IMG/VR virus record: IMGVR_UViG_3300031949_001696 | Source: a virus | Lineage: Duplodnaviria > Caudoviricetes | Length of the DNA stretch: 64,000 bases | Reading direction: 5' to 3' (one strand) | Shown: piece by piece, positions 4 to 2,277 of the stretch | How the letters are laid out: each line of letters begins with the position of its first letter | Numbering within the stretch: the stretch's first letter is position 1 | Notes under the pieces: generated by a model | Database searches by the model: none | What the model saw: the letters and a program-made list of their open reading frames with translations, nothing else | What the model was told of the DNA's origin: nothing | Position numbers and translations under genes: made by a program

Positions 4-750
4 GTGATCGCGCCGCTCGGCGCGCACGTGCCGGCGATCTGCGCGCGCCTCACGGATGCTGCGCAGCTCTCCAAGGCGCGCGTGCATCCGATCCAGATGC
101 TGTCGGCGCTCAAGACGTATCAGCAGGGGCACGGCGCGCGCGGCAAGTCGACGTGGACTGCGGTCCAGCCGATCGTCGACGCGCTCGACGCAGGTTTCTA
201 CGCGGCGTTCGCGACGGTCGAGCCGACGAACCAGGCGACGCTGATCGCGCTCGATGTCTCGGCGTCGATGTGCTCGGGCACGATCGCGGGCTGCCCTGGC
301 CTGTCGCCGCGCGTGGCGTCGGCGGCGATGGCGCTCGTGACGGCGGCGCGCGAGCCGAACCACCACATCATGGGGTTCTCGGACACGCTCGTCGACGTGC
401 CGATCTCGCCGAAGATGCGTCTCGATCAGGCGATCGCTGCGATCGATCGCGTTCGGATGGGCGGCACGGACTGTGCGCTGCCGATGGTCTGGGCCGAGAA
501 GTCGAAGGCGAAGGTCGACGCGATCGCGATCTACACCGACAACGAGACGTGGGCCGGCCCGGGGCATCCGCACAAGGCGCTCCAGAGCTACCGCAAGAGC
601 TCGGGGCGGCCGACCAAGCTCGCGGTTGTCGGCTTGACCGCGACGCAGTTCACGATCGCCGATCCGACGGACGCAGGCATGATGGACTTCGTCGGGTTCG
701 ACGCGGCGGCGCCGCAACTCATGGCGGACTTCTTTCGCGAGGGAGCATGA
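4..750 (+). CDS. rsr: Ro60/TROVE ribonucleoprotein, C-terminal part with vWA domain (5' end probably lies before the window)
   Basis: vWA MIDAS LDVSASM, GGTDCALPM, IYTDNETWAG-HP and C-terminal FTIADP-D-GM-D-VGFD are diagnostic of Ro60/Rsr. Confidence 0.95.
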   Translation: MIAPLGAHVPAICARLTDAAQLSKARVHPIQMLSALKTYQQGHGARGKSTWTAVQPIVDALDAGFYAAFATVEPTNQATLIALDVSASMCSGTIAGCPGLSPRVASAAMALVTAAREPNHHIMGFSDTLVDVPISPKMRLDQAIAAIDRVRMGGTDCALPMVWAEKSKAKVDAIAIYTDNETWAGPGHPHKALQSYRKSSGRPTKLAVVGLTATQFTIADPTDAGMMDFVGFDAAAPQLMADFFREGA

Positions 751-753
751 CCC

Positions 754-1617
754 GTGGGGTATTTGCACATTGCCAACCTCTACAAGGAGCCTGATCTCCT
801 TTTGTTCCGACGCTGCTACGCGCTCGAGAAGGTGCACGGCACTTCCGCTCATATCGCCTGGGGCCCCGCTGGAGTCACGTTCTTCTCCGGTGGTGAGTCT
901 CACACGCGCTTCGTCGGGCTGTTCGACGCTGCCGCGCTGAAAGATCAGTTCAGCGCGCTGGGACACGCCGAGGTGACGATCTACGGTGAGGCGTACGGCG
1001 GCAGTCAGCAGGGCATGAGGCTCGTCTACGGCGCGGAGCTGCGCTTCATCGCGTTCGACGTGCAGGTGGGCTCGTGCTGGCTGTCTGTGAAGGATGCCGA
1101 GCAGGTATGCCAGGCGCTCGACATCGAGTTCGTGCCTTACGAAGAGATCGCGACCGAGCTGGTCGAGATCGATCGCGTGCGCGATCAGCCGTCAGCGGTG
1201 GCCGTGCGTCGCGGCACGGGAGCCGACAAGCCGCGCGAGGGAGTGGTCCTGCGCCCGCTCGTCGAGGTGACCAAGAACAACGGATCGCGCATCATTGCCA
1301 AGCACAAGGCCGACACGTTCGCCGAGCGTGCCACGCCACCCAAGGTGGTGGATGTGGCCAAGCTCGAAGTGCTGGCGGCGGCAGAGGCGATCGCGCAGGA
1401 GTGGGTGACGCCGATGCGCCTGACTCACGTGCTCGATAAGCTCGGCACGACCGACATCAGCGAGATGTCCAAGATCATTCACGCCATGGTCGAGGACGTG
1501 TTCCGCGAGGCCAAGGGCGAGATCGTCGAATCGAAGGATGCCCGGACAGCGATCGGCAAACGCACGGCGCGGCTATTCAAGGAGCGTCTTGACCAGGTGA
1601 TGCGCACCGCGGGCTGA
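754..1617 (+). CDS. ATP-dependent RNA ligase, T4 Rnl2-like
   Basis: Nucleotidyltransferase motifs EKVHGTS (I), IYGEAYG (III), FIAFDV (IIIa), REGVVLRP (IV), IIAKHK (V); follows Ro60 by 3 nt. Confidence 0.88.
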   Translation: MGYLHIANLYKEPDLLLFRRCYALEKVHGTSAHIAWGPAGVTFFSGGESHTRFVGLFDAAALKDQFSALGHAEVTIYGEAYGGSQQGMRLVYGAELRFIAFDVQVGSCWLSVKDAEQVCQALDIEFVPYEEIATELVEIDRVRDQPSAVAVRRGTGADKPREGVVLRPLVEVTKNNGSRIIAKHKADTFAERATPPKVVDVAKLEVLAAAEAIAQEWVTPMRLTHVLDKLGTTDISEMSKIIHAMVEDVFREAKGEIVESKDARTAIGKRTARLFKERLDQVMRTAG

Positions 1618-1643
1618 GTCATCTGAAGTGCTACGATGGCTGC

Positions 1644-2277
1644 GCGTCGGGTTGTCCGCTGCGCGCGTTATCGTCGGCCTATTAAGCCGAAAGGAAGCCG
1701 CTCTCGCGACCTCTTCATCCGTCGCACCTTGACGTCACGATCGTCTTCGGGCAGGTTCTCTTCGTCGGGTTGTAGCGGCACTGTTCTCATCAACAGAAAA
1801 GCGGTGCCGCAGCTCTTCATCCGACACCATTTCCGCCGTTGACGGTTCGTGCGTCTTCAGGCATCTTCTTCTTCGTCGGGTTGTAGTGGCAGTGTTCTCT
1901 GGTTGAAACCGCTGCCACGCCTCTTCATCCGACTCTCTATTCGCCCTGGCGTTCCTTCGCGGATGTCAGGAGTTTCATTTTTGCCGGGTTGTCGCCGGAG
2001 TGTTCTCTCGAACAGAACCACGCTCCAGCACCCCTTCATCCGGCACCATTCCCAGCAGCACTGTTCTCTCGTTTTGCCGGGTTGTCGCGAGATCGTTACC
2101 TGACTTGTAATCAGGCCCTCACGGGCTTCGCGGTCTTGCACTCTTCATCCGGCGTCATTTTCGGCGGGTTGTAGATCCAGGGTTACCACGTAGGACATCG
2201 AGGTCGCGGGTTCGACTCCCGTCGTATCGGCGCGAGCCGATGAAGTGGAATGGTGTCATGTGGGGTCCTTGGCTGTC
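1644..2277 (+). ncRNA. Array of six Y-RNA-like units (1644-1725, 1764-1825, 1875-1933, 1983-2044, 2076-2153, 2163-~2277)
   Basis: Each unit starts G(T/C/G)CGGGTTGT and units 1-5 end C(T/C)CTTCATCCG(A/G/T)C; ends base-pair with covariation; conserved inner GTT(A/C)YC; directly downstream of Ro60 and ligase; -10-like TACGAT at 1632-1637. Confidence 0.8.
2163..2277 (+). ncRNA. YrlA-like Y RNA with circularly permuted tRNA-like domain
   Basis: Long closing stem, T-arm GCGGG-TTCGACT-CCCGT, loop-capped acceptor-like stem ATCGGC-GCGA-GCCGAT, D-loop-like AGTGGAA. Confidence 0.72.

What the first reader, a model, noticed from the sequence alone, without database searches (positions are those of the whole stretch)
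4..2277. Ro60 + RNA ligase + six-unit Y-RNA-like array with a constant scaffold and swappable apical cargo
Seen: directly after Ro60 and an Rnl2 ligase are six units with the same basal helix (GYCGGGTTGT...CYCTTCATCCGRC, with covarying GTCGG/CCGAC versus GCCGG/CCGGC). Each has a variable paired mid-stem and a conserved GTT(A/C)YC, then a different apical module. Units 2 and 4 are followed by ACCA. Known: bacterial Ro60 (Rsr) binds adjacent Y RNAs (YrlA/YrlB, usually one or two) and is often linked to RtcB. Inference: this is a phage RNA-repair/decoy system in which Ro60 displays a library of RNA cargoes and an ATP-dependent ligase takes the place of RtcB. I am not aware of a described array with this layout.
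Basis: partly seen in the sequence, partly recalled or inferred. Interest (0 to 1): 0.9.

Follow-up and report, generated by a model that had tools for sequence, protein, structure and literature searches.

The report
Phage Ro60 with six-unit Y-RNA array
A 268-kb soil phage encodes the RNA-binding ring protein Ro60, an RNA ligase and six small partner-RNA genes that share one docking scaffold; several of them carry look-alikes of tRNA anticodon arms, which enlarges a known partnership and points to a testable role in the fight over tRNAs.

Summary
A true Ro60/Rsr gene and an Rnl2-like RNA ligase are followed by six tandem units on the same strand. Five are complete and one has only the 5' half plus a tRNA-like core.

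They belong to the known Rsr-associated Y-RNA family (YrlA/YrlB type). A covariance model built from them finds 132 units in the window plus 82 phage Ro60 loci, 131 of them on the Ro60 strand. It finds units in 10 of 10 bacterial Rsr loci and none in 11 ligase-only control loci. Pairing is 95.7%, and 15 of 16 pairs show compensatory changes. Arrays of 3 to 5 units are common, so six is the top of a range, not unique.

New here: about a third of family members (42 of 122; shuffles give 6) carry, just after the conserved GUUAYC motif, a hairpin with a 7-nt anticodon-type loop. Unit 5 copies 18 nt of the phage's own tRNA-Thr(UGU) anticodon arm.

Not supported: the ACCA tails are not a family feature. 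The Ro60-ligase adjacency is lineage-specific. Unit 6 fails the Rfam YrlA model. Ro60 binding, processing and any decoy or repair role are untested.

This scan has already reported similar Ro60-like arrays on other phage DNA.

The parts
1..750 (+). 3' part of the Ro60/Rsr gene. The full gene is 552 aa and begins 908 bases before the window.
   Evidence: vWA_Ro60 1.9e-61. TROVE plus vWA_Ro60 on the full gene. Solved chains 9NEN, 2NVO and 1YVP at E about 1e-125.
754..1617 (+). Rnl2-like ATP-dependent RNA ligase, 287 aa. It starts 3 bases after the Ro60 stop codon.
   Evidence: PF09414, phrog_548, TIGR02307 1.4e-12 below its cut-off. Motifs IV and V and the C-terminal domain align to T4 Rnl2. Motif I, KVHGT, is read from the translation.
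1644..1725 (+). Unit 1: full scaffold, irregular mid-stem, long apical part.
   Evidence: Model R1 E 0.004. Model R2 27.1 bits.
1674..1690 (+). Unit 1 apical hairpin: 5-bp stem and the loop CUAUUAA. It shares 11 nt with the anticodon arm of the phage tRNA-Ile(tat), in a register shifted by one base.
1762..1827 (+). Unit 2: full scaffold. The apical part can form a 5-bp stem with the loop CUCAUCA. ACCA follows at 1826-1829.
   Evidence: R2 74.6 bits. Fold z-score -4.26.
1873..1935 (+). Unit 3: full scaffold and a short apical loop with no clear anticodon-type hairpin.
   Evidence: R2 68.1 bits. Fold z-score -4.16.
1945..1970 (+). Hairpin followed by a T-run in the spacer between units 3 and 4; terminator-like.
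   Evidence: Consensus scan only.
1981..2046 (+). Unit 4: full scaffold. ACCA follows at 2045-2048.
   Evidence: R2 70.3 bits. Fold z-score -3.13.
2002..2018 (+). Unit 4 apical hairpin GUUCU / CUCGAAC / AGAAC. The same loop sits on a different stem in the closest relative, L003.
2055..2071 (+). Remnant of a unit (mid-stem 5' strand plus GUUCUC, no basal helix) in the spacer between units 4 and 5.
   Evidence: Read directly from the sequence. It resembles the same part of unit 2.
2074..2155 (+). Unit 5: full scaffold, an anticodon-arm copy and a small GCCC/GGGC hairpin.
   Evidence: R1 2e-7. R2 48.2 bits. Fold z-score -3.17.
2098..2115 (+). An 18-nt stretch identical to the anticodon arm of the phage's own tRNA-Thr(UGU), which lies 6.9 kb upstream at L083 2348-2421.
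   Evidence: It is the longest exact match between the array and 73 kb of the genome.
2161..2267 (+). Unit 6: 5' scaffold half plus a YrlA-type tRNA-like core. T arm 2206-2222, GNRA-capped acceptor-like hairpin 2226-2241, D-loop remnant. The 3' box is missing.
   Evidence: Alignment with YrlA-type units of other loci. No RF02553 hit. R2 only 11.5 bits, through an alternative fold.

Best explanation
This is a phage Ro60 (Rsr) ribonucleoprotein module. One + strand unit probably runs from a cluster of more than 25 tRNA genes through rsr and an Rnl2-like ligase into six Y-RNA-like genes.

Each RNA has the docking scaffold of the YrlA/YrlB family:
- a 7-bp closing helix;
- an asymmetric internal loop whose 5' strand is the family's GNCGAAG-type motif (here the variant GUUGU);
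- a 6-9 bp variable stem;
- the motif GUUAYC.

The part beyond GUUAYC differs from unit to unit. It is a tRNA-part mimic: anticodon-type hairpins in units 1, 4 and 5, where unit 5 is an exact copy of the phage tRNA-Thr arm, and a T-arm plus closed acceptor core in unit 6.

Shown: the scaffold, its covariation, its exclusive link to Ro60 genes and strand, the anticodon-type loops and the tRNA-Thr identity.

Inferred: Ro60 binds the scaffold as it binds YrlA, and the apical mimics bring tRNA-directed proteins to the Ro60 ring. These could be host tRNA-cleaving defence nucleases or tRNA-processing and repair enzymes, including the neighbouring ligase. The module would then serve the phage's tRNA maintenance and counter-defence.

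The confidence of 0.55 blends about 0.9 for the identity as Ro60-partner Y-like RNAs with about 0.35-0.4 for the tRNA-directed adaptor mechanism.
For: Link to Ro60:
- Model R2 gives 132 hits in the window plus 82 phage Ro60 loci, 131 on the Ro60 strand.
- It finds units in 10 of 10 bacterial Rsr loci and none in 11 ligase-only phage loci.

Structure:
- 95.7% of cells are paired, against 33-44% when the 3' partners are slid.
- 15 of 16 pairs show compensatory changes.

Link to YrlA:
- Long units with the same scaffold hit Rfam YrlA RF02553 at E 6.6e-10 to 1e-3.
- 38 of 122 members have the exact GNCGAAN0-1G motif that Chen et al. 2014 (PMC4201824) tie to Rsr binding.

Anticodon-type hairpins:
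- 42 of 122 units have one, against 6.1 +/- 2.1 in shuffles.
- The loops CUGCUAA, CUGUUAA and CUUGUAA recur on different stems.
- Unit 5 is identical over 18 nt to the phage tRNA-Thr(UGU) arm.

Precedent:
- Phage phiLo Ro60 binds two Yrl RNAs (PMC12135203).
- The Ro60-like gp130 of phage Bas63, next to its tRNA genes, counters the ppl defence system (PMC11482910).
Against: - No window unit reaches any Rfam family, including YrlA.
- The window's motif GUUGU differs from GNCGAA at two positions.
- Unit 6 lacks the 3' closing strand and may be decayed.
- Two thirds of family members have apical loops that are not anticodon-like.
- Only unit 5 copies a tRNA arm. The stems of units 1 and 4 differ from those of the matching tRNAs.
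- The ligase is not linked to Ro60 in any other sampled lineage.
- The alignment used for the pair counts was fitted to the model, which favours the structure.
Confidence: 0.55

Rival explanations
1. RYPER-type tether. The Y-like RNAs link Ro60 to a host 3'-5' exoribonuclease (PNPase), as in D. radiodurans and Thermus phage phiLo. The variable apical loops are single-stranded landing pads. Their anticodon-like shape is incidental, and so is the neighbouring ligase.
For: phiLo Ro60, its Yrl RNAs and host PNPase form a ternary complex (PMC12135203). Many family members have non-anticodon loops. The ligase adjacency is not conserved.
Against: This does not explain the sevenfold excess of YU-NNN-RN heptaloops. 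It does not explain the same loop recurring on different stems, or the 18-nt copy of a tRNA arm.
Confidence: 0.2
2. Evolutionary relic. YrlA-type RNAs arose from tRNA dimers. The hairpin before the T arm is then a leftover anticodon arm. The short units are decayed paralogues that only raise the dose of the Ro60-binding scaffold, and their apical sequence has no role.
For: The dimeric-tRNA origin model is in the literature (bioRxiv 10.1101/312249). In YrlA-type units the hairpin, GAGGUC and T arm are collinear with the anticodon arm, variable loop and T arm of a tRNA. A unit remnant lies at 2055-2071, and unit content varies among close relatives.
Against: Loops are kept while stems covary (CUGCUAA on four different stems; a fifth in a bacterial locus). 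The unit 5 copy is exact, so it is recent or maintained. Relics would lose the 7-nt loop form.
Confidence: 0.15
3. Cis-acting elements. The hairpins are terminators, processing sites or autoregulatory Ro60 sites in the operon transcript, not separate stable RNAs.
For: T-runs precede units 4 to 6, and a terminator-like hairpin lies at 1945-1970. In other loci the arrays lie either upstream or downstream of Ro60.
Against: The unpaired motifs are conserved and the structure is homologous to YrlA and YrlB, which are stable Rsr-bound RNAs in Salmonella and M. smegmatis (PMC4201824).
Confidence: 0.05

Closest known systems
Rsr (bacterial Ro60) with YrlA/YrlB Y RNAs: Salmonella rsr-yrlBA-rtcBA, M. 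smegmatis, 22 phages (Chen et al. 2014, PMC4201824; Rfam RF02553)
   Same: A Ro60 gene with the RNAs on the same strand within 4 kb. A closing helix, a GNCGAAG-type motif and YUAY. One member with a T arm, a closed acceptor hairpin and D-loop elements. The family scaffold is shared with RF02553-positive units in related loci.
   Different: Six units rather than one or two. The motif is the variant GUUGU. No unit reaches RF02553. The apical parts include anticodon-type hairpins, whereas YrlA is described as lacking an anticodon loop. The neighbour is an Rnl2-like ligase instead of RtcB/RtcA.
Thermus phage phiLo Ro60 with Yrl1 and Yrl2 (PMC12135203, 2025)
   Same: A phage-encoded Ro60 with several adjacent Y-like RNAs of stem, bulge and stem design carrying a CGAA-type motif.
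   Different: Two RNAs, upstream of the gene. Their reported role is a complex with host PNPase. No tRNA-arm copies or ligase are reported.
D. radiodurans Rsr-Yrn1-PNPase (RYPER)
   Same: A Y RNA acts as an adaptor between the Ro60 ring and an effector protein.
   Different: The effector module of Yrn1 is a large loop for PNPase. Here the modules are short tRNA-part mimics.
T4 Rnl2, and the T4 Pnkp-Rnl1 repair of PrrC-cut tRNA-Lys
   Same: A phage ATP-dependent RNA ligase of the Rnl2 type. The theme is a phage answer to anticodon cleavage.
   Different: No end-healing kinase-phosphatase was seen beside it, and the ligase's link to Ro60 is new and lineage-specific. The T4 repair pathway is cited from established knowledge, not from a paper read here.
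Bas63 gp130, a Ro60-like protein upstream of phage tRNA genes that counters the ppl defence (PMC11482910)
   Same: A phage Ro60-type protein sited at a tRNA cluster, with an anti-defence phenotype.
   Different: It is a structural look-alike, not a TROVE-family match. Its partner RNAs are only proposed.
Arrays of 'handle plus cargo' RNAs beside Ro60-like genes reported earlier in this scan (e1-5378700, e1-5375047, e1-272486)
   Same: Tandem small RNA genes with one shared handle and different inserts, some tRNA-like, next to a Ro60-type gene in large phages.
   Different: Those have a different handle (CAGCAA type) and a DUF2828/vWA Ro60-like protein. Here both the protein and the handle are of the classical Ro60/YrlA kind. 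I did not re-test those notes.

Membership tests
Ro60/Rsr protein | A TROVE HEAT-repeat ring plus a C-terminal vWA domain, alignable over the full length to solved Ro60 structures. | tested here: met
   PF05731 plus PF25045 on the 552-aa gene. 9NEN, 2NVO and 1YVP match at E about 1e-125 over residues 14-549.
Ro60/Rsr protein | Score above the NCBIfam equivalog cut-off (NF041674). | tested here: not met
   529.9 bits against a cut-off of 900. It is a divergent phage ortholog.
YrlA (Rfam RF02553) | A match to the Rfam covariance model. | tested here: not met
   No RF02553 hit for any window unit, even at E up to 10 on 701 bases. Scaffold-sharing long units in L014, L036, L002 and L001 hit it at 33-55 bits, below the gathering score of 69.
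YrlA/YrlB-type Y RNA | Encoded within about 4 kb of the Ro60 gene, on the same strand. | tested here: met
   The units lie 0.9-1.5 kb after the Ro60 stop on the + strand. Across the family 131 of 132 hits are on the Ro60 strand.
YrlA/YrlB-type Y RNA | A GNCGAAN0-1G motif near the 5' end. | tested here: not met
   The window units have GUUGUAG or GUUGUCG. 38 of 122 family members have the exact motif and 70 of 122 have GNCGA. The window carries a variant of the motif.
YrlA/YrlB-type Y RNA | A conserved YUAY after the long stem. | tested here: inconclusive
   UUAU or UUAC in units 1, 5 and 6. UUCU in units 2 to 4.
YrlA | A tRNA-like core with a T arm, a loop-closed acceptor stem and a D arm. | tested here: inconclusive
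   Unit 6 only. It has a T arm and a GNRA-capped 6-bp hairpin, but the D stem is not formed and the 3' closing strand is missing.
Y RNA (any) | Bound by Ro60 as a stable small RNA. | not testable with these tools
   No RNA runs hold the stretch.
Rnl2-type RNA ligase | Nucleotidyltransferase motifs I, IV and V plus the Rnl2 C-terminal domain. | tested here: met
   KVHGT is read from the translation. EGVVLRP and IAKHK, together with the C-terminal domain, align to T4 Rnl2 2HVQ. TIGR02307 scores 1.4e-12 but below its cut-off.
Ro60-ligase repair operon (as rsr-rtcB) | The gene pair recurs in independent lineages. | tested here: not met
   The ligase is absent from the 80 IMG/VR phage Ro60 loci. 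None of 13 ligase loci has Ro60.

The most novel reading that the evidence does not exclude
Phages use Ro60 as a platform that displays a changeable set of anticodon-arm look-alikes copied from tRNAs. These act as baits or decoys for host tRNA-cleaving defence nucleases. In this phage, cut baits or cut tRNAs are resealed by the co-transcribed Rnl2-type ligase.
Probability: 0.2. Interest if true: 0.85.

Novelty: new variant of a known kind. Interest (0 to 1): 0.6.

Why it matters
Ro60 and Y RNAs are conserved from bacteria to humans, yet what the variable part of a Y RNA recruits is still largely open. Here and in dozens of phage and bacterial loci that variable part often takes the form of a tRNA anticodon loop, and once it is an exact copy of the phage's own tRNA arm. 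This contrasts with the published description of YrlA as lacking an anticodon loop.

The finding gives a concrete hypothesis to test: Ro60 particles engage proteins that read or cut anticodon loops. It also supplies a covariance model that finds the short, unannotated partner RNAs which Rfam misses. If the bait idea holds, it would be a new RNA-based counter-defence against tRNA-targeting immunity.

Tried and rejected
- Rfam on the window at gathering and permissive thresholds gave nothing for the array.
- MAFFT alignments that included units 1 and 5 were structurally wrong and were dropped. The model was seeded from units 2 to 4.
- ACCA or NCCA tails as a family trait: 5 of 121 units, rejected.
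- Own promoters for units 2 and 3 (TTGACG, 17 nt, CAGGTT or CATCTT): the two spacers are paralogous copies and the -10 boxes are poor, so this is not claimed.
- tRNA-arm identity in other loci: none found within the +/-4 kb flanks. One apparent case (L061) is ARAGORN calling the unit itself a tRNA.
- Units 2 and 4 against the phage tRNA-Met and tRNA-Ser(CGA): only the loop letters are shared.
- Extra units upstream of Ro60: none with filters off.
- Expression: no RNA holder is listed among public runs.
- The contigs laid show relatives and unit gain or loss only. They are low-depth and were laid at 80% likeness, so this is weak evidence.
- Fetching more of the contig upstream returned no DNA.
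- No whole genome is held for the window.
- Three papers could not be read: the Sim and Wolin reviews and Burroughs and Aravind 2016. A prior description of such arrays there cannot be excluded.

Full report
**What is there**

The window starts inside a gene whose last 249 residues are the vWA domain of Ro60. An exact-protein look-up gave the source contig: a 267,828-bp metagenome contig, held here as L083, with L083 coordinate = window + 9247. It carries the whole 552-aa gene with TROVE and vWA_Ro60 domains. That gene aligns over its full length to human or Xenopus Ro60 and to D. radiodurans Rsr at E about 1e-125.

Three bases after the Ro60 stop begins a 287-aa RNA ligase. It matches Pfam RNA_ligase, PHROG 548 and TIGR02307 (the last below its cut-off). 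Its motifs IV and V and its C-terminal domain align to T4 Rnl2.

Upstream of Ro60, on the same strand, lie at least 25 tRNA genes. The window also holds a tail-fibre-like gene and homing endonucleases. The context is therefore a jumbo phage.

**The repeat**

CGGGTTGT occurs six times in the 64 kb, all between 1648 and 2172 on the + strand. CTTCATCCG closes five of the units.
- a 7-bp closing helix;
- an asymmetric internal loop;
- a 6-10 bp stem of free sequence;
- the motif GUUMYC, then an apical part.

Their folds are 3-4 standard deviations better than shuffles. Unit 1 fits, with a U-U mismatch offset by three extra closing pairs. Unit 6 has the 5' half only.

**Family**

A covariance model seeded from units 2 to 4 found units 5 and 1 and nothing else in the window. 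After one round of enrichment, model R2 gave these results:
- 132 hits in the window plus 82 phage Ro60 loci, 131 on the Ro60 strand;
- hits in all 10 bacterial Rsr loci and none in 11 ligase-only phage loci that served as a control;
- on 122 distinct sequences, 95.7% of cells paired, against 33-44% when partners are slid;
- 15 of 16 pairs with compensatory changes.

The alignment is fitted to the model, which favours it, but the margin is large.

Long members with the same scaffold hit Rfam YrlA (RF02553) at E down to 6.6e-10, below the gathering score. A third of members carry the exact GNCGAAN0-1G motif that Chen et al. 2014 connect with Rsr binding. The array therefore belongs to the known Rsr-associated Y-RNA family. 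The window's own units are a motif variant (GUUGU) that Rfam does not see.

**How unusual is six**

Among loci with at least one hit (55, counting the window), the number of model-detected units per locus is:

| Units | Loci |
|---|---|
| 1 | 14 |
| 2 | 21 |
| 3 | 9 |
| 4 | 6 |
| 5 | 5 |

The five-unit class includes the window, whose sixth unit the model misses. Bacterial loci have up to four. The papers I could read describe one or two Y RNAs per species or phage (PMC4201824, PMC12135203), so multi-unit arrays are under-described, but this one is not singular. Contigs of close relatives suggest that whole units come and go, and a unit remnant lies at 2055-2071.

**The apical parts**

Unit 5 contains an 18-nt stretch identical to the anticodon arm of the phage's own tRNA-Thr(UGU). 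It is the longest exact match between the array and 73 kb of the genome. Three of the 18 letters overlap the conserved motif, which leaves 15 independent letters.

Units 1 and 4 carry 5-bp stems with the 7-nt loops CUAUUAA and CUCGAAC.

Across the family, 42 of 122 distinct units have a hairpin with a loop of the anticodon form (Y-U-NNN-R-N, T-loops excluded) just after GUUMYC. Shuffles give 6.1 +/- 2.1, with a maximum of 13. The loops CUGCUAA, CUGUUAA and CUUGUAA recur on different stems, also in a bacterial locus and in the 'V' hairpin of YrlA-type units. The published M. smegmatis YrlA probe sequence reads CCA-CUUCUAA-UGG.

The structural paper states that YrlA lacks the anticodon loop. Under its dimeric-tRNA origin model, this hairpin would be a retained anticodon arm.

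**Unit 6**

Unit 6 has a T arm (20 nt shared with a phage tRNA), a GNRA-capped acceptor-like hairpin and a D-loop remnant, in YrlA order. Three things argue against a standard YrlA:
- it fails RF02553;
- its V and D stems do not form;
- no 3' closing strand is present.

It abuts the 3' end of a convergent gene called on the source contig. An alternative fold pairs its 5' strand with the T-arm 3' strand. It may be decayed.

**The ligase**

The ligase looks active by its motifs, and its position suggests co-transcription with Ro60. None of the 80 IMG/VR phage Ro60 loci has a homolog, and none of 13 ligase loci has Ro60. The pairing is a feature of this lineage, not a conserved system.

**Mechanism**

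Most likely these are Ro60-docked adaptor RNAs whose variable ends mimic parts of tRNA and so engage tRNA-directed proteins. Two facts give this context. Another phage Ro60 binds its Yrl RNAs and host PNPase. A Ro60-like phage protein beside tRNA genes defeats a defence system.

That the mimics are baits for anticodon nucleases, with ligase resealing, is the boldest reading left open; I put it at about 0.2. The rivals are a PNPase tether, tRNA-derived relics without a role, and cis-acting elements.

**Verdict**

This is a new variant of a known kind. Its real added value is the family-wide anticodon-type hairpin and the exact tRNA-arm copy. Earlier notes of this scan report comparable arrays, with another handle, in other phages.

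Noticed in passing
L083 772-7767 (window -8475 to -1480): At least 25 tRNA genes lie on the Ro60 strand directly upstream. Several have odd anticodon loops. For example, tRNA-Ile(tat) has the loop CCUAUUA, with C at position 33 and U at position 37.
   Followed up: partly
window 6809-6883: ARAGORN calls a tRNA-Phe with anticodon AAA here. Rfam's tRNA model does not reach its gathering score. The loop reads CCUAAAA, so it may be a tRNA-Leu(UAA) with C33.
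   Followed up: no
window 9942-10619 and 13846-14799: GIY-YIG-type and LAGLIDADG-type homing endonuclease genes flank a second tRNA cluster at 11705-13090. That cluster includes a class II tRNA-Ser(CGA) near 13000-13090 that ARAGORN did not list.
   Followed up: partly
L003 1045-1157 (- strand): This is the only model hit on the strand opposite to Ro60. It lies inside a minus-strand tRNA cluster of the closest relative and carries the loop CUGAUAA, so a Y-like unit may be embedded among tRNA genes.
   Followed up: no
L001 2793-3083 (Microbacterium phage FuzzBuster, MN062720.1): Three unannotated Y-like units, one YrlA-type and two short, lie in the 350-nt gap upstream of the annotated Ro-like gene of this cultured phage. 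It is a ready experimental system.
   Followed up: partly
window 2060-2080, 2150-2165 and 2283-2290: Short T-runs precede units 4, 5 and 6 and follow unit 6. They may be weak terminators or processing sites.
   Followed up: no
window 2276-2608 (- strand): A 110-aa gene is called on the source contig and converges on the end of unit 6. It has no family match in Pfam (as listed for the called gene) or NCBIfam. It may have truncated the last unit.
   Followed up: partly
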